Shown here: piece after piece, positions 1,267 through 11,142 of the stretch
How the letters are laid out: the number at the start of each line of letters is the position of its first letter
Numbering within the stretch: the stretch's first letter is position 1
Virus record (IMG/VR): IMGVR_UViG_2721755662_000003
Origin: a virus
Taxonomy: Duplodnaviria > Heunggongvirae > Uroviricota > Caudoviricetes
DNA length: 15,658 nucleotides
Direction: 5' to 3' (one strand)
Program-made: the position numbers and the translations under genes
The notes under the pieces: generated by a model
Told to the model about the DNA's origin: nothing
What the model saw: only the letters and a program-made list of their open reading frames with translations
The model's database searches: none

Positions 1267-1310
1267 ACAACGTGCAACAATGAGCAACAATGTGGAACAA
1301 CTACGAACAA
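1267..1310 (-). repeat. Five direct repeats of ACAA (minus-strand TTGT, mostly TTGTTC/G) with exact 10-bp phasing
   Basis: atACAA cgtgcaACAA tgagcaACAA tgtggaACAA ctacgaACAA at 1267,1277,1287,1297,1307; same motif as arrays at 7899-7949 and 15383-15408. Confidence 0.65.
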
Positions 1311-1583: not shown

Positions 1584-1772
1584 GTGTTAAGCACTGATCG
1601 GTTTATACGTGAAAAAGAATGCGAAAAACTAACCGGCCTTAGCCGTACGTGTCGCTACCGCCTGGAAAAGGCCGGACAATTCCCATCACGTCGTAAACTT
1701 GGCGGTCGTTCCGTTGGCTGGTCTTTATCCGAGGTTCTGGCCTGGAAGGATAGCTGCAAGGCAGTTCATTAA
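1584..1772 (+). CDS. alpA: AlpA/Vis-family winged-helix regulator/excisionase (about 62 aa from GTG 1584; maximal ORF from ATG 1503)
   Basis: Sequence LSTDRFIREKECEKLTGLSRTCRYRLEKAGQFPSRRKLGGRSVGWSLSEVLAWKD matches the AlpA pattern; RBS aagggggg 5 nt upstream of GTG 1584. Confidence 0.85.
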   Translation: MLSTDRFIREKECEKLTGLSRTCRYRLEKAGQFPSRRKLGGRSVGWSLSEVLAWKDSCKAVH

Positions 1773-1922
1773 TCACGCTGGCGGCACGCAGCCGCCACAC
1801 ATCAATCATCTGAACACAGAGCTATAACCATGAAGATTGAATATACGCCAGAACGTGGGCGGGGATTCGTTCGCCCTGGTGAAACTGAAAAACAACAAAA
1901 TTGGGGTTTTTCAGGTATAAAA

Positions 1923-1950
1923 AAAGCGGCCCCGAAATGGAGCCGCCTTT
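1923..1950. terminator. GC hairpin (GCGGC-loop-GCCGC) with a 7-T run on the minus strand; probable terminator for the minus-strand small genes
   Basis: aaagcggc cccgaaatgga gccgccttt; A-run on + side gives T-run on minus strand. Confidence 0.4.
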
Positions 1951-2041
1951 CTGAACAGATAACCCGCTGCGCCGTTTGTGTGTGTGATCCCAAACATAAG
2001 CACGGGGATGATAGCCGTTATCAGGCTGGTGGGCAATGCAA

Positions 2042-2230
2042 TCAGTCTGGTTCAGTTCGTTGCCATACCTGCAATGAGCGCTTTTCCCTGTACTCTTTAA
2101 GGAATTGCTCAAGGGCAAAAGCACATGGCGCGAATCTTTCTGATTCATGCTCTATCTTTCTGCGCCGTCTTTTCCGTGCCGGTGATAATGTTTTGGTCAA
2201 TTCTTTATCGGTCATTGTGTTGTCCTGCAT
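2042..2230 (-). CDS. Hypothetical small basic protein (62 aa), in frame with and separated by a single TAA from the upstream RHH-like ORF
   Basis: ORF track; ARKRRRRK basic patch; no recognisable family. Confidence 0.35.
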   Translation of the reverse strand: MQDNTMTDKELTKTLSPARKRRRRKIEHESERFAPCAFALEQFLKEYREKRSLQVWQRTEPD

Positions 2231-2272
2231 AGCAATGCGCCGTAATACCTTACACCACGGCGCTGATGGTGA

Positions 2273-2452
2273 TTACTCTGGTTCTTTGGCCTTGCGCCGC
2301 TGGCGATATTCAACTTCTCGTTTTAATGCCGCAGTAACAAATTGCCCCGTACTTTCGCCAGGCATTTTTACCGCCTCAACATTGTTCATAACTTCATGCG
2401 GAACCCTTGCCGCAACGGTTTGTGATTTTGCGTTTACCGCTTTTGTCGCCAT
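2273..2452 (-). CDS. Small ribbon-helix-helix-like DNA-binding protein (59 aa), candidate island repressor; not in the ORF track because it is under 60 aa
   Basis: Hand translation of minus strand: MATKAVNAKSQTVAARVPHEVMNNVEAVKMPGESTGQFVTAALKREVEYRQRRKAKEPE; beta-strand then two helices pattern typical of RHH; SD GAGGGG 7 nt upstream of ATG; divergent from operator-bearing promoter. Confidence 0.5.
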   Translation of the reverse strand: MATKAVNAKSQTVAARVPHEVMNNVEAVKMPGESTGQFVTAALKREVEYRQRRKAKEPE

Positions 2453-2502
2453 GTGGTGTACCCCTCATAAAAAACAAATGCAGTATGCAGGAAAAAAAAT
2501 AA

Positions 2503-2555
2503 GTGTTCAACACTTGACGTGTTTAACACCTGGGTTTAAATTGGTGTTCAACACC
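2503..2555 (+). promoter_or_regulatory. Early promoter (TTGACG -35 at 2514-2519, 17-bp spacer, TAAATT -10 at 2537-2542) overlapped by three operator dyads GTGTTYAACAC
   Basis: Operators at 2503-2513, 2519-2529, 2544-2554, each GTGTT-N-AACAC; they cover the -35, spacer and start region. Confidence 0.55.
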
Positions 2556-2651
2556 TTGTTGGCGCAAGGTGCAGAAACGACGAAACCCGGCAGTGCGCTA
2601 ACACTAACCGGGCTTCTAACCACCAACGATAGCGAAAGTATCGAGGTAGCT

Positions 2652-2855
2652 ATGAGAAATCATACCACACACCCGCAAGGGCGGGACTCGCACAACCTGA
2701 ATAAATACATCTGGCGTTTTATCGCCCTGAGCACGGCACAACCGCGCGTGATTACCATTGAGGCCACCAGCGAACAGGAAGCACGCCAGCAATCTCCGGC
2801 TGGCTGCGTGATGGTATTCGCTGCCCGTATTCGCCAGGGGTCACATCATGCGTAA
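2652..2855 (+). CDS. Small protein (67 aa), possibly Icd-like/Ash-like family seen in P4-type elements; paralog of 3088-3309
   Basis: RBS gaggt 4 nt upstream of ATG 2652; C-terminal region KYIWRFIALS...IEATSEQEARQQ...VFAARIRQG mirrors second copy. Confidence 0.5.
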   Translation: MRNHTTHPQGRDSHNLNKYIWRFIALSTAQPRVITIEATSEQEARQQSPAGCVMVFAARIRQGSHHA

Positions 2856-2859
2856 AAAC

Positions 2860-3140
2860 CGCTTGCAAAAAATTATCACGGGGCTGTATGCTTCCCCCGT
2901 CGCCCACATGGCGACCGGGTTTGACAGCCTGAATACATCTGGCGGACAGCCGCCCACATCCGATAAGCGGTTTTTTTGTGTCCGTAAACCTACCCATACC
3001 CGCATTATGGCGGGGCGTAACGGGGGAGCCTTTGTGCTCGCTGGTTTCCAGATGACCAGTCTGTCAACCCTGTTACGTCTCGCCACCATGTTTGACAGCG
3101 TAGTAGCGAGACTCCTTAAAATTCATCTGGGAGCCTTTCA
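2860..3140 (+). promoter_or_regulatory. Structured leader between the two paralogous small genes: nested stem-loops, repeated GTTTGACAGC and GCCCACAT motifs, terminator-like GCGG+T7
   Basis: GGCTGT(2872)...CCCGTCGCC cacat GGCGACCGGG...ACAGCC(2930); GGCGG acag CCGCC (2932-2945); aagcgg ttttttt (2956-2967); CTGTCAA(3062)/TTGACAG(3092); GTCTCGC(3077)/GCGAGAC(3107). Confidence 0.35.
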
Positions 3141-3309
3141 CATGGCTGTATCCGCACGCCCTTATTTTGTCTGGCGCTTTATGCAGTGCCTGACAGACAG
3201 CATTGCAATATTCACCGTTACCGCTGCCACTGAGCGCGAAGCACGTGCACAGCTGCCGCACGCACATCTGATTTTTGTCGCCCGTATTCGTCAGGGGGTA
3301 GGCTTATGA
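3088..3309 (+). CDS. Small protein, paralog of 2652-2855 (start uncertain: ATG 3088 or ATG 3142)
   Basis: PYFVWRFMQCL...TVTAATEREARAQL...IFVARIRQG parallels first copy; the N-terminal half of the 153-aa track ORF is probably not coding. Confidence 0.5.
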   Translation: MFDSVVARLLKIHLGAFHMAVSARPYFVWRFMQCLTDSIAIFTVTAATEREARAQLPHAHLIFVARIRQGVGL

Positions 3310-4862: not shown

Positions 4863-6613
4863 AACTGGCACCGAACGTAAAACAGCAGTCACGCGGCATA
4901 AAACACAAAGAAACAGAAGTCATTATTTTTGCGGGTAGTGATGCCTGGTCACACGCAAAACAATGGCAGGAACATGACGCGCGTATGGCCGGAGATAATG
5001 AGCCTCCTGTGTGGCTTGGGGAGCAGCAGTTATCCGAACTGGATAAGCTGCAAATTGTGCCGGAAGGCAGAAAATCCGTGCGCATATTCAGGGCCGGATA
5101 TCTTGCGCCAGTAATGATAAAGGCGATTGGTCAGAAGCTGGCGGCGGCAGGCGTACAGGATGCAAATTTTTACCCTGATGGTATGCACGGTCAGAAGGTG
5201 GAGAACTGGCGCGAATATCTGGCCCGTGAGCGCCAGAATCTTTCTGATGGTCTGGTCATTGAGCTTCCGGTAAAGCAAAAGGCGCAACTTTCGCAGATGG
5301 CGGACAGTGAGCGCGCGCAGCTGCTTGCCGATCGCTTTGATGGCGTTTGCGTACATCCTGAAAGTGAAATCGTTCACGTATGGCGCGGCGGGGTATGGTG
5401 TCCGGTCAGCACAATGGAACTTAGCCGCGAAATGGTGGCGATCTATTCAGAGCACAGGGCCACTTTCAGCAAGCGCGTAATCAATAACGCCGTGGAAGCG
5501 TTAAAAGTTATTGCCGAACCAATGGGCGAGCCGTCCGGCGATTTGTTGCCGTTCGCCAATGGTGCGCTTGACCTGAAAACGGGGGAATTTTCCCCGCACA
5601 CGCCGGAGAACTGGATCACCACGCACAACGGCATTGAGTACACGCCACCAGCACCAGGGGAGAACATCCGCGATAACGCGCCAAACTTTCATAAATGGCT
5701 TGAGCACGCAGCCGGAAAAGACCCGCGCAAGATGATGCGTATATGTGCCGCGCTGTACATGATTATGGCGAACCGGTACGACTGGCAGATGTTTATTGAG
5801 GCCACCGGAGACGGCGGGAGCGGTAAAAGTACATTCACACACATAGCCAGCCTTCTGGCAGGGAAACAGAACACGGTAAGCGCTGAAATGACATCGCTTG
5901 ATGATGCTGGTGGACGTGCGCAGGTTGTCGGGAGTCGTCTTATCGTCCTGGCTGACCAGCCGAAATATACAGGCGAAGGAACGGGCATCAAGAAAATCAC
6001 GGGCGGTGACCCCGTGGAAATTAACCCGAAATACGAAAAGCGTTTCACGGCGGTAATCAGGGCGGTGGTGCTGGCGACCAACAATAACCCGATGATATTC
6101 ACCGAACGGGCCGGAGGTGTGGCACGTCGTCGCGTGATTTTCCGTTTCGACAATATCGTCAGTGAGGCCGAAAAAGACAGGGAGCTACCGGAAAAGATCG
6201 CGGCTGAAATCCCTGTCATTATCCGCCGATTGCTGGCGAACTTTACCGACCCTGAGAAGGCACGGGCTTTACTACTGGAACAGCGTGACGGTGATGAAGC
6301 TCTGGCAATAAAGCAACAGACGGATCCGGTTATTGAGTTTTGCCAGTTCCTGAATTTTCTGGAGGAAGCACGCGGCCTGATGATGGGCGGCGGTGGCGAT
6401 TCAGTGAAGTACACGACCAGAAACAGCCTTTACCGCGTCTATCTGGCGTTTATGGCGTACGCAGGCAGGAGCAAACCGCTAAACGTAAATGACTTTGGCA
6501 AGGCTATGAAGCCAGCCGCGAAAGTTTACGGACATGAATATATTACGCGGAAAGTTAAGGGAGTAACGCAGACTAACGCAATAACAACAGACGAGTGCGA
6601 CGCGTTTTTATAA
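4859..6613 (+). CDS. Replication protein: P4-family primase C-terminal type (D5_N-like region plus SF3 helicase NTPase), 584 aa
   Basis: Walker A GDGGSGKST, Walker-B-like LIVLADQP, D5_N-like region LPFANGALDLKTGEFSPHTPENWITTHNGIEY; followed directly by iteron ori. Confidence 0.85.
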   Translation: MKLAPNVKQQSRGIKHKETEVIIFAGSDAWSHAKQWQEHDARMAGDNEPPVWLGEQQLSELDKLQIVPEGRKSVRIFRAGYLAPVMIKAIGQKLAAAGVQDANFYPDGMHGQKVENWREYLARERQNLSDGLVIELPVKQKAQLSQMADSERAQLLADRFDGVCVHPESEIVHVWRGGVWCPVSTMELSREMVAIYSEHRATFSKRVINNAVEALKVIAEPMGEPSGDLLPFANGALDLKTGEFSPHTPENWITTHNGIEYTPPAPGENIRDNAPNFHKWLEHAAGKDPRKMMRICAALYMIMANRYDWQMFIEATGDGGSGKSTFTHIASLLAGKQNTVSAEMTSLDDAGGRAQVVGSRLIVLADQPKYTGEGTGIKKITGGDPVEINPKYEKRFTAVIRAVVLATNNNPMIFTERAGGVARRRVIFRFDNIVSEAEKDRELPEKIAAEIPVIIRRLLANFTDPEKARALLLEQRDGDEALAIKQQTDPVIEFCQFLNFLEEARGLMMGGGGDSVKYTTRNSLYRVYLAFMAYAGRSKPLNVNDFGKAMKPAAKVYGHEYITRKVKGVTQTNAITTDECDAFL

Positions 6614-9930: not shown

Positions 9931-11142
9931 ATGTGGCCTTTCAGAAGAAAAAAAGAGCAGCGCAGCATGACGCTGGATGAATTTATGGCGCTGGCTGGCA
10001 CATCGAACACGGGGGCGGGTGAGTACGTATCATCGGGGACAGCGGAATCACTGCCCGCCGTCATGAACGCCGTGACGGTCATCTCTGAGGCGGTGGCTAC
10101 CATGCCGTGTTACCTGTACCTGGTACGCAATGAGAAGGGGAAGGAGGCCCGCGAGTGGCTTGATTCTCATCCGGTCGATCACATCCTCAACGAGCGCCCG
10201 AACGCATGGCAAACCCCCTACCAGTTTAAGCGAATGATGATCCGCCACTGCCTGTTAAACGGTAATGCTTATGCGGTGATTCAGTGGGGGCGTGATGGTT
10301 TTCCGGCGGCTTTACATCCTTACCCGCCGCAGTCGGTGAACGTGGAGCAGACAGGCGAACACAACTGGCGCTACTGCATCACTGACGCCTACACCGGAAA
10401 CACCCGCAACTATTTACCGTGGGAAGTACTTCACCTTCGTTACTCCACGGATGACGGCTTTATGGGGCGCTCACCTGTAACCATCTGCCGCGAATCGCTG
10501 GGGCTTGGGCTGGCCCAACAACGCCACGGCGCGAGCGTGATGCGTGATGGCATGATGGCGGCAGGGGTTATCACGTCAGGCGAATGGCTGGACGGCGTGA
10601 AGGGCAAACAGGCATTAGCCGCACTGGAACGCTACAAAGGGGCCAGAAACGCCGGAAAAACGCCCATCCTTGAAGGGGGTATGAGCTATCAGCAGCTGGG
10701 CATGAGTAATCAGGATGCTGAATGGCTGGCCTCCCGTCGCTTCACCATTGAAGACATCGCCCGAATGTTCAACGTCTCGCCGATTTTTTTGCAGGAATAC
10801 AGCAACAGCACCTACAGCAATTTCAGCGAGGCAAGCCGCGCATTTCTCACCATGACGATGCGCCCGTGGCTGGCGAACTTTGAGCAGCAGATAAAAAACG
10901 CCCTGCTGGTGGCCTCGCCTGTACCTGGTATCCGGTATCAGGTGGAGTTTGACAGCGCGGACCTGTTACGGGCCACACCTGGCGAACGCTTTGCCACCTA
11001 TGAGCGCGGCATCAAATCCGGCGTTATGTGTCCGAACGAAGCCCGCGAACGTGAAGGTCTGTCACCGCGTGATGGTGGTGATGAGTTCAGCCAGGCATGG
11101 AAACAGGAAGTAAAAATCAGCGAGGGAGAAAAACCGGAATGA
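9931..11142 (+). CDS. Portal protein, HK97 family (403 aa)
   Basis: Conserved portal segments NGNAYAVIQW, RRFTIEDIARMFNVSPIFL, MRPWLANFEQQI. Confidence 0.9.
   Translation: MWPFRRKKEQRSMTLDEFMALAGTSNTGAGEYVSSGTAESLPAVMNAVTVISEAVATMPCYLYLVRNEKGKEAREWLDSHPVDHILNERPNAWQTPYQFKRMMIRHCLLNGNAYAVIQWGRDGFPAALHPYPPQSVNVEQTGEHNWRYCITDAYTGNTRNYLPWEVLHLRYSTDDGFMGRSPVTICRESLGLGLAQQRHGASVMRDGMMAAGVITSGEWLDGVKGKQALAALERYKGARNAGKTPILEGGMSYQQLGMSNQDAEWLASRRFTIEDIARMFNVSPIFLQEYSNSTYSNFSEASRAFLTMTMRPWLANFEQQIKNALLVASPVPGIRYQVEFDSADLLRATPGERFATYERGIKSGVMCPNEAREREGLSPRDGGDEFSQAWKQEVKISEGEKPE

What the first reader, a model, noticed from the sequence alone, without database searches (positions are those of the whole stretch)
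2273..2555. Compact genetic switch: divergent RHH-like gene and three GTGTTYAACAC operators over the early promoter
Three near-identical dyads (2503-2513, 2519-2529, 2544-2554) overlap the -35 (TTGACG), spacer and start region of a promoter reading rightward into the early operon. A 59-aa ORF with an RHH-like pattern and a good SD is transcribed divergently from the same region. This looks like the master repressor and operator of the island, the point at which a helper phage would have to derepress it. The repressor is too small for the ORF track and would be missed by length-filtered annotation.
Basis: partly seen in the sequence, partly recalled or inferred. Interest (0 to 1): 0.65.

Follow-up and report, generated by a model that had tools for sequence, protein, structure and literature searches.

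The report
Small repressor switch in a phage satellite
A 59-residue DNA-binding protein and its three binding sites form the on/off switch of the early promoter in an E. coli phage satellite (PICI). This makes it a strong candidate for the repressor that Gram-negative PICIs were thought to lack, although the helper phage probably bypasses it rather than attacking it.

Summary
Three exact GTGTTYAACAC dyads (2503, 2519, 2544) bracket a TTGACG-17-TAAATT promoter, and a 59-aa gene (2273-2452, minus strand) diverges from it.

The window is an E. coli capsid-forming PICI. The small gene is real and conserved: RefSeq calls it 'YlcI/YnfO family', substitutions run 13 synonymous to 1 non-synonymous, and the predicted fold is RHH-type.

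In about 35 related islands, a repeated motif sits at fixed positions and changes together with beta-strand residues 11-15 of this protein. I found at least 10 protein/motif pairs. AlpA, the Icd-like gene and other neighbours can stay identical while the pair changes. This is strong comparative evidence for a cognate repressor-operator pair that is exchanged as an immunity cassette. EcCICFT073 and an EcCIEDL933-type island carry the module, and the literature calls a global repressor in such islands 'unclear'.

It is probably not where the helper phage acts, because published work shows that AlpA expression alone induces these islands. The switch lies inside a long plus-strand ORF (1830-2855). 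That ORF has no stop codon over the operators in 27 of 30 loci, as in P4 eta, so translated read-through from the alpA promoter probably bypasses the repressed promoter (inferred). A C4 antisense RNA (3003-3090) adds a second layer of control here.

The parts
2273..2452 (-). rhh: 59-aa ribbon-helix-helix-type repressor gene (RefSeq 'YlcI/YnfO family protein' WP_000201461.1)
   Evidence: Against E. coli variants with 93% DNA identity, 13/14 and 12/13 CDS differences fall at codon position 3, and changed codons are 13:1 and 11:1 synonymous:non-synonymous. There are 74 homologues across Enterobacterales.
2461..2466 (-). Shine-Dalgarno GAGGGG of rhh, 8 nt before the ATG
   Evidence: Read from the sequence.
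2503..2513 (.). Operator O1, GTGTTCAACAC. It abuts the -35 of the rightward promoter and covers the putative -35 (TTGAAC, 2505-2510) of the leftward promoter.
   Evidence: This copy (+51 from the rhh ATG) is particular to window-type islands and L004.
2519..2529 (.). Operator O2, GTGTTTAACAC, in the spacer of the rightward promoter (+67 from the rhh ATG, a position shared by nearly all related islands)
2544..2554 (.). Operator O3, GTGTTCAACAC, over the expected rightward transcription start (+92, a conserved position)
2514..2542 (+). Rightward early promoter P_R: TTGACG, 17 nt, TAAATT
   Evidence: TTGA(C/A/G) sits at the same position in nearly all related loci. No substitutions occur in the -35, the -10 or the dyads among the 93% variants.
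2482..2510 (-). Putative leftward promoter P_L for rhh: -35 TTGAAC (2505-2510), 17 nt, -10 CATACT (2482-2487). It matches 8 of 12 consensus positions, so it is inferred.
   Evidence: Read from the sequence. The -10 is TATACT in most relatives. It falls below the threshold of the scan.
2042..2215 (-). orf57, a small basic protein gene co-oriented with rhh and downstream of it. It is not annotated in the window's own record.
   Evidence: It is identical to WP_000130015.1, annotated in L036 and in CFT073. It was not detected by tblastn outside E. coli.
1920..1947 (-). Intrinsic terminator of the leftward rhh-orf57 unit (hairpin plus U7)
   Evidence: -22.4 kcal/mol, z = -4.6, and 0 of 200 shuffles fold as well.
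1830..2855 (+). Long 341-aa ORF (P4 eta-like). It starts 57 nt after alpA, runs antisense through orf57 and rhh and across the operators and P_R, and ends with the Icd-like domain.
   Evidence: Over 30 loci, stops in the 180 nt right of the rhh ATG total 11 in this frame, against 143 and 161 in the other two. 27 of 30 loci have no stop over +1..+96. The open stretch starts right after the alpA stop. Long forms with Phage_ASH or Bro-N N-termini exist. EcCICFT073 has a 428-aa equivalent.
1584..1772 (+). alpA (Phage_AlpA HTH), the published activator of Gram-negative PICIs
   Evidence: Pfam PF05930, E = 5e-17; WP_000953272.1.
2552..2643 (+). Structured leader of the P_R transcript: hairpins at 2552-2571, 2584-2614 (followed by the invariant UCUAACCA) and 2627-2643 (next to the SD)
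   Evidence: 13 of 16 predicted pairs show compensatory changes. No Rfam match on this strand.
2652..2855 (+). Icd-like gene 1 (67 aa), the first cistron of the P_R transcript and the C-terminal part of the long ORF
   Evidence: NCBIfam NF033153, E = 1e-19.
2886..2935 (+). a1/b1 target sites of the C4 antisense RNA
   Evidence: Rfam RF03163, 46.8 bits against a gathering score of 46.7.
3003..3090 (+). C4 antisense RNA (P1/P7 immI type), a second immunity layer. It lies inside ORF 2848-3309, whose last 73 codons (from ATG 3088) form Icd-like gene 2.
   Evidence: Rfam RF01695, 72.6 bits against a gathering score of 45. The Icd-like domain covers aa 107-149. The RNA is absent from EcCICFT073, L033-L037 and 12 other loci.

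Best explanation
The 59-aa protein is a ribbon-helix-helix repressor. As a dimer it recognises 11-13 bp sites of the form (G)GTG-N5-CAC(C). Bound at O2 (spacer) and O3 (start), it shuts the rightward early promoter P_R (icd-like, then replication genes). Through O1 (over the leftward -35), or in most relatives a site next to the leftward -10, it limits its own synthesis. It acts as the immunity or maintenance repressor of the island. Its DNA-reading part and its operators are exchanged together between islands, which gives many specificities. Induction most likely does not remove it. [quoted passage not shown] This is the P4 P_LL/vis/eta design, and it bypasses P_R and probably silences rhh. 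Shown here by comparison: the protein-site pairing, the fixed architecture, purifying selection and the open frame. Inferred: binding itself, repression, and the read-through mechanism.
For: 1. The dyads are non-random and occur nowhere else in the island or in the 12 other loci scanned with their own motif.
2. The gene is under purifying selection and is conserved in Enterobacterales.
4. There are at least 10 distinct pairs of beta-strand sequence and repeated motif, at fixed distances (+22, +67, +92) from the ATG.
5. Natural swaps: the window, L033 and L036 share an identical AlpA (WP_000953272.1) but carry three different RHH/motif pairs. L036 also has a 94% identical Icd-like protein and an identical orf57, while its RHH is only 61% identical. 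The divergent block spans roughly 2300-2600.
6. Two tandem islands in L019 carry different pairs.
7. The long-ORF frame is almost free of stops across the switch. P4 eta is described in the same terms in PMC10111431.
8. AlpA alone suffices for induction of EcCICFT073, which has the module.
Confidence: 0.72

Rival explanations
1. One reading: the RHH protein is the master repressor, and induction requires a helper-phage protein that binds and inactivates it (SaPI Stl style).
For: The repressor-operator pairing is real. The many specificities could reflect an arms race with helper-encoded anti-repressors. The helper-encoded inducer of Gram-negative PICIs is still unidentified (PMC6092414).
Against: AlpA expressed from a plasmid, without any helper, induces EcCICFT073, which carries the module. 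Helper phages activate an alpA reporter in strains without the island. alpA overexpression drives EcCIEDL933. No operator lies near alpA.
Confidence: 0.12
2. The RHH protein is the antitoxin of a toxin-antitoxin pair with the downstream orf57, and the dyads serve only for autoregulation of that pair.
Against: tblastn did not detect orf57 in the 31 loci from other genera. In Xenorhabdus islands only about 240 nt separate rhh from the convergent alpA. Two of the three conserved sites lie on the spacer and start of the divergent promoter, not on the rhh promoter. At 59 aa, the protein has no toxin-binding extension.
Confidence: 0.04
3. The dyads are read by another factor (AlpA, the Icd-like protein, the long-ORF product or a host protein), and the small ORF is incidental.
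For: None specific. The long ORF overlaps the sites, and AlpA is a DNA-binding protein.
Against: The motif differs among islands with identical AlpA, near-identical Icd-like protein and identical orf57, and it follows the RHH beta strand. A host factor cannot explain at least 10 motif types within one host range. The near-match at the alpA start (1584-1594) is identical in islands with other motif types, so it is coincidental.
Confidence: 0.03
4. The RHH-operator complex mainly acts as a roadblock or insulator. It stops basal read-through from the int/alpA side from reaching the replication genes, rather than (or as well as) repressing P_R.
For: Three closely spaced sites lie in the path of the long + strand ORF and transcript. 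Sites downstream of a transcription start are typical roadblocks.
Against: The strict placement of the sites relative to the -35 and -10 of P_R in all loci argues that promoter occlusion is under selection. The two functions are not exclusive.
Confidence: 0.15

Closest known systems
Phage P22 immI region (Mnt and Arc, RHH repressors of Pant)
   Same: A very small RHH repressor is transcribed divergently from the promoter it represses. Its operator overlaps the -35 and spacer of that promoter and touches the repressor's own promoter. In relatives the controlled operon is of the 'antirepressor/icd' type.
   Different: There is no significant sequence similarity (pairwise hhalign E about 0.01). 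Here there are three separate 11-bp sites rather than one 17-21 bp operator. The element is a satellite, not a phage, and the gene lies antisense inside another ORF. The tetramerisation domain of Mnt is absent.
Satellite phage P4 immunity region (P_LL - vis - eta, with internal P_LE, kil and CI RNA)
   Same: An alpA/vis homologue is followed by a long ORF that contains an internal early promoter and ends in a short nested cell-division or killing gene. The second long ORF (2848-3309) contains a C4/CI-type RNA. PMC10111431 describes the P4 logic: the full ORF is translated only from the upstream activated promoter, and its translation prevents termination.
   Different: In P4 the internal promoter is constitutive and immunity is RNA-only. 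Here the internal promoter carries operators for a protein repressor whose gene is embedded antisense in the same ORF. tblastn found the RHH family in only one of 50,697 phage-collection records, a 16.5-kb element. I assume that collection includes P4 but did not check.
Phage P1/P7 immI (c4 RNA - icd - ant)
   Same: C4 RNA and the a1/b1 targets are above Rfam gathering scores, and an Icd-like gene starts at the 3' end of C4. As at P1 Op51, a protein repressor also controls the operon's promoter (from my own knowledge).
   Different: The repressor is a 59-aa RHH protein, not C1. No ant gene follows in this window. Most RHH-bearing islands lack C4.
SaPI/Gram-positive PICI master repressor Stl/Rpr
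   Same: The repressor is transcribed divergently at the boundary between the int side and the replication side of a PICI, and it probably keeps the island silent.
   Different: The protein family is different (Stl proteins are larger HTH proteins). Stl is inactivated by helper proteins, whereas here published data point to AlpA activation instead.
E. coli K-12 YlcI (DLP12) and YnfO (Qin), namesakes of NCBIfam NF041551
   Same: They share the 42-residue N-terminal domain model. YlcI also reads as strand, helix, G-S turn, helix.
   Different: YlcI lies next to cos/nohD at the end of a lambdoid prophage, not at a divergent early promoter. I found no function in the literature.

Membership tests
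Ribbon-helix-helix (MetJ/Arc/CopG) superfamily | N-terminal beta strand followed by two helices joined by a G-x-S/T/N turn | tested here: met
Ribbon-helix-helix (MetJ/Arc/CopG) superfamily | Significant sequence match to an RHH family model | tested here: inconclusive
   The window protein has no Pfam RHH hit. hhalign against Arc and CopG gives only E = 0.0075 and 0.012. A distant relative found with the family profile (P0271) reaches RHH_1 exactly at its cut-off of 20.5 bits.
Ribbon-helix-helix (MetJ/Arc/CopG) superfamily | Homodimer with a two-stranded antiparallel sheet inserted in the major groove | not testable with these tools
Indirect support: the variable residues 12 and 14 on the strand change together with the central 5 bp of the sites.
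Ribbon-helix-helix (MetJ/Arc/CopG) superfamily | Binds repeated or palindromic operators at its own or a divergent promoter | tested here: met
   Shown by comparison only: at least 10 co-varying protein/motif pairs, plus cassette swaps. No binding assay was done.
YlcI/YnfO family (NCBIfam NF041551) | Score above the curated cut-off of the family model | tested here: met
   59.7 bits against a cut-off of 30, E = 2e-16.
Capsid-forming PICI (cf-PICI) | int, alpA and a primase, plus its own capsid, protease, portal, connectors, HNH and TerS/TerL, with no tail or lysis genes, in about 15 kb | tested here: met
   RefSeq annotation of the identical island in FORC_069, inserted in tqsA.
P1/P7-type immI (C4 antisense RNA system) | C4 RNA and its upstream a1/b1 targets above Rfam gathering scores, followed by an icd gene | tested here: met
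   RF01695 at 72.6 bits (gathering score 45), RF03163 at 46.8 bits (gathering score 46.7). The Icd-like domain is at 3166-3294.
P1/P7-type immI (C4 antisense RNA system) | Antirepressor (ant) gene downstream of icd | tested here: not met
   Ant is not annotated among the genes after 3309 in the identical record. Related islands carry AntA/AntB elsewhere.
P4 eta-type nested regulatory ORF | Long ORF after the alpA/vis homologue that contains an internal early promoter and a nested short C-terminal gene | tested here: met
   ORF 1830-2855 contains P_R and icd-like 1. The frame is kept open in 27 of 30 loci. There is a 428-aa equivalent in EcCICFT073. Homologous long forms have Phage_ASH or Bro-N N-termini.
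P4 eta-type nested regulatory ORF | Translation of the long ORF from the upstream activated promoter suppresses termination or immunity | not testable with these tools
   This needs transcript and translation data. Only the depletion of stop codons speaks for translation.
Type II toxin-antitoxin (RHH antitoxin) | Conserved cognate toxin gene in the same operon | tested here: not met
   orf57 was found only in the E. coli islands, with no tblastn hit in 31 loci from other genera. It has no Pfam or NCBIfam match.

The most novel reading that the evidence does not exclude
Gram-negative PICIs, including the prototypes EcCICFT073 and EcCIEDL933, do have a protein repressor. It is a 59-aa RHH immunity protein whose gene is hidden antisense inside a translated eta-like ORF. 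The same DNA encodes the repressor on one strand, and on the other strand the translated read-through path that AlpA uses to override it. Convergent transcription and translation, rather than an anti-repressor, flip the switch. Swapping the rhh-operator cassette creates heteroimmune island lineages that can share one cell.
Probability: 0.4. Interest if true: 0.8.

Novelty: new variant of a known kind. Interest (0 to 1): 0.68.

Why it matters
[quoted passage not shown] The papers on cf-PICIs that I could read never mention a repressor.

This module is present in 639 of 5426 complete E. coli genomes at the DNA level for this type alone. It is also in EcCICFT073 and in an EcCIEDL933-type island. 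It gives a concrete, testable candidate together with predicted operators and predicted specificity residues.

It would explain three things:
- how the replication genes stay silent before AlpA appears;
- why several related islands can coexist, through different immunities;
- why earlier maps show only unidirectional genes, since the long + strand ORF was annotated instead of the small antisense gene.

The natural set of at least 10 matched protein/operator pairs is also a ready-made series of orthogonal small repressors.

Tried and rejected
- PDB sequence searches with the single protein and with the family profile gave only chance hits.
- A fourth operator at the alpA start (1584-1594, one mismatch) is rejected. 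The same sequence is present in islands with other operator types, and it is simply the alpA N-terminal coding sequence.
- The TA antitoxin reading is rejected because the partner gene is not conserved.
- I first treated the 341-aa + strand ORF as an annotation artefact. The stop-codon counts across 30 loci made me reverse that.
- The C4 RNA is not an obligatory partner of the RHH module. It is absent from 18 other loci, including the prototypes.
- K-12 YlcI was looked at for functional clues. It sits in a different context, next to cos, and has no known function.
- Eight literature searches found no description of an RHH repressor in Gram-negative PICIs. Subscription-only papers are not covered.
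- I did not verify that L033 (O157:H7 strain TB21-1) is base-for-base EcCIEDL933.

Full report
WHAT THE WINDOW IS. The window is 100% identical over 1800-3000 to a chromosomal island inserted in tqsA of E. coli FORC_069 and many other strains. RefSeq annotates the island with an integrase, an AlpA-type HTH protein, several small genes, a primase, SSB, PerC, and then a capsid, prohead protease, portal, connectors, HNH, TerS and TerL. That is a capsid-forming PICI (cf-PICI).

THE OBSERVATION. With one mismatch allowed, the pattern gives 7 strand-matches against 0.43 expected, and 0 of 200 shuffles reach that number. The consensus scan finds TTGACG-17-TAAATT at 2514-2542 on the + strand. The dyads therefore flank the -35, fill the spacer and cover the start. 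The 59-aa ORF (2273-2452, minus) has a GAGGGG Shine-Dalgarno 8 nt upstream. Contrary to the finding, RefSeq does annotate it, as 'YlcI/YnfO family protein' (NCBIfam NF041551, E = 2e-16). No function is attached to that name.

IS THE GENE REAL, AND WHAT FOLD DOES IT HAVE? Seventy-four homologues of 57-64 aa occur in E. coli, Salmonella, Klebsiella, Pectobacterium, Serratia, Proteus, Xenorhabdus and others. An exhaustive profile search finds only 81 clusters at 50% identity, so the family is small. Against E. coli variants with 93% DNA identity, 13 of 14 and 12 of 13 coding differences are at third codon positions. Changed codons are 13 synonymous to 1 non-synonymous, and 11 to 1. These positions are also third positions in the overlapping + strand frame, so this test cannot say which strand is under selection. 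The conserved RHH-like protein across genera is the stronger evidence.

DOES THIS PROTEIN READ THE DYADS? This is the main result. I fetched 31 loci from other genera and several E. coli islands. The region upstream of the gene has a rigid architecture:
- a repeated 11-mer about 22 nt from the ATG, next to a TATACT (the leftward -10);
- a second copy at +67, immediately after a TTGAC(G) -35;
- a third copy at +88 to +93, just after the rightward -10.

The sequence of the repeated 11-mer differs between loci, and it does so together with residues 11-15 of the protein:

| Beta-strand residues 9-16 | Repeated motif |
|---|---|
| KSQT[VLI]AAR | GTGTTCAACAC |
| KS[KR]KLEAR | GTGGCTGACAC |
| KSQ[SA]LK[SA]R | GTGGGCCACAC |
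| KSQK[LV]Q[AT]R | GTGGAGTCCAC |
| KSKRFDVR | GTGTCCGACAC |
| KSQSVTAR | GTGTAAGACAC |
| KSQKMSAR | TGGGTGCCAGT |
| KSQKIQAR | TGGAATCCAGT |
| KSQQLNAR | GTGCGATTCAC |
| KSAQKKIR | GTGTACCCCCA |

Residue 13 is always hydrophobic, and residues 12 and 14 vary most. That is what an RHH strand with alternate residues facing the DNA would show (inference).

Natural swaps exclude other readers of the dyads. The window, an O157:H7 island at the same tqsA site (L033) and L036 all encode the identical AlpA protein, WP_000953272.1, yet they carry three different RHH/motif pairs. L036 also has a 94% identical Icd-like protein and an identical orf57, while its RHH is 61% identical. The divergent block runs from about 2300 to about 2600, which is the DNA-reading part of rhh plus the operators, and the flanks are about 100% identical. 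Two tandem islands in one Pectobacterium genome have different pairs. In the 13 sequences scanned, including the window, each motif occurs only in this region. I take this as strong comparative evidence for a cognate repressor-operator pair that behaves like a lambdoid immunity cassette. Binding itself has not been shown.

HOW THE SWITCH IS BUILT IN THIS WINDOW. O2 and O3 sit in the spacer and on the start of P_R, which is the classical geometry for promoter occlusion. The window type lacks the usual site next to the leftward -10. It has O1 instead, which covers a possible leftward -35 (TTGAAC, 17 nt, CATACT, 8 of 12 consensus positions). Kosakonia L004 has both sites. Among the 93% variants no substitution falls in a dyad, the -35 or the -10. 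The leftward unit is rhh, then a 57-aa basic ORF (2042-2215) that is annotated elsewhere as WP_000130015.1 but not in this record, and then a strong terminator (1920-1947).

EcCICFT073, the prototype Gram-negative PICI, carries the module: RHH KSQALKAR with GTGGGCCACAC sites. For that island, Fillol-Salom et al. showed four things: AlpA activates its own promoter; plasmid-borne alpA without any helper causes excision and runaway replication; helper phages switch on an alpA reporter in strains lacking the island; and a global repressor was 'unclear' (PMC6092414). alpA overexpression is also used to produce EcCIEDL933 particles, and an alpA mutant is not inducible. The helper therefore acts at alpA, not at this repressor.

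THE LONG ORF. The + strand frame that ends in Icd-like gene 1 is open from the alpA stop codon (1773; first ATG at 1830) to 2855. It runs antisense through orf57 and rhh and across the operators. I first took this for an artefact. However, over 30 loci the 180 nt to the right of the rhh ATG contain 11 stops in this frame (8 of them in one locus), against 143 and 161 in the other two frames. Taking only +1..+96, which lies upstream of the P_R start, 27 of 30 loci have no stop, where base composition predicts a 5-15% chance per locus. In a few islands, including L033, the frame closes just before the icd start, but it still spans the operators. EcCICFT073 has a 428-aa equivalent. It may be the 'ORF3' of the 2018 paper (I did not check this), which would explain why the antisense gene was overlooked. 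Homologous long forms are annotated as 'Icd-like', 'ash family' or 'Bro-N' proteins, some with Pfam Phage_ASH or Bro-N N-termini.

This is the design described for P4. There, eta follows the alpA homologue vis, contains the internal promoter P_LE, the CI RNA and the nested kil gene, is translated in full only from the activated upstream promoter, and by being translated prevents termination (summary in PMC10111431).

My reading, which is inference: P_R corresponds to P_LE and is kept shut by the RHH protein. PalpA corresponds to P_LL. AlpA-driven, translated read-through crosses the switch, expresses the early genes regardless of the repressor, and runs head-on into rhh transcription.

THE SECOND LAYER. 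The window also holds a C4 antisense RNA (3003-3090, 72.6 bits) and its a1/b1 targets (2886-2935). Both lie inside ORF 2848-3309, whose last 73 codons (from ATG 3088) form a second Icd-like gene. That is a P1 immI or P4-type block. It is missing from EcCICFT073, L033-L037 and 12 other loci. The RHH module is therefore the constant element and C4 is an add-on. C4/IsrK-type RNAs in Gram-negative PICIs have been noted before (PMC10111431).

COMPARISON AND NOVELTY. Functionally, the closest analogue is P22 Mnt at Pant. Architecturally, it is P4's vis-eta-P_LE region, with a protein repressor in place of, or in this island added to, the RNA. The RHH family appears in only one of 50,697 phage-collection records, a 16.5-kb element, so it looks satellite-specific. 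I found no paper describing it, but subscription journals are not covered. I rate it a new variant of a known kind. The repressor-operator logic is ordinary. Three aspects are not ordinary: its presence in Gram-negative PICIs, its many specificities, and its antisense nesting in a translated ORF. The first of these bears directly on a question the field has stated is open.

CONFIDENCE.

| Claim | Confidence |
|---|---|
| The gene is real and RHH-like | about 0.9 |
| It represses P_R | about 0.75 |
| AlpA read-through bypasses it | about 0.45 |
| A helper anti-repressor acts on it | about 0.12 |

Noticed in passing
window 2886-2935 and 3003-3090 (+), inside ORF 2848-3309: A C4 antisense RNA (P1/P7 immI type) and its a1/b1 targets lie inside a 153-aa ORF whose last 73 codons (ATG 3088) form a second Icd-like gene. 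This block is absent from EcCICFT073, the O157:H7 island and 16 other related loci.
   Followed up: partly
window 2552-2643 (+): The leader of the rightward transcript has three conserved hairpins. The middle one (2584-2614) is followed by an invariant UCUAACCA, and 13 of 16 pairs show compensatory changes across 16 loci. It has no Rfam family on this strand. It may be an RNase P-type processing signal like those of C4/CI precursors.
   Followed up: partly
window 2042-2215 (-): A 57-aa basic ORF lies downstream of rhh. It is identical to WP_000130015.1, annotated in other E. coli genomes including CFT073, but it is not annotated in this island's own record. There PGAP calls the opposite strand (1830-2277) an 'Icd-like pseudogene'.
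   Followed up: partly
window 1920-1947: A strong hairpin is followed by U7 on the minus strand (z = -4.6). It looks like the terminator of the leftward rhh-orf57 unit. On the + strand it is followed only by CUUUCU, so it may let alpA-side transcripts pass.
   Followed up: partly
window 1274-1300 (and 1527-1548): Repeats in 10-bp phase (GCAACAATGA x2.7, ACAATAAGAC x2.2) lie between int and alpA. They are candidate AlpA or integrase arm-type binding sites upstream of the alpA promoter.
   Followed up: no
L002 (Edwardsiella hoshinae NZ_BAUC01000010.1) 5800-6171: The RHH protein (57/57 aligned residues identical) and all three operators are the same as in the E. coli window. The neighbouring Icd-like protein, primase and integrase are only 55%, 52% and 24% identical. 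The cassette has therefore moved between genera and between island backbones.
   Followed up: partly
L019 (Pectobacterium betavasculorum) 6001-6168 and 10565-10747: Two islands in tandem each have their own RHH gene and their own operator type (GTGTCCGACAC and GTGCGATTCAC). They look like heteroimmune co-residents.
   Followed up: partly
L003, L005, L007, L035 (between int and alpA): The Rfam int-alpA RNA motif (RF02996) is present in several related islands but was not detected in the window, even at E <= 1.
   Followed up: no
L038 (E. coli K-12 DLP12) 6252-6446: YlcI, namesake of the family, also has an RHH-like sequence pattern. It lies immediately upstream of the cos site and nohD of a lambdoid prophage, so its context is quite different.
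   Followed up: partly
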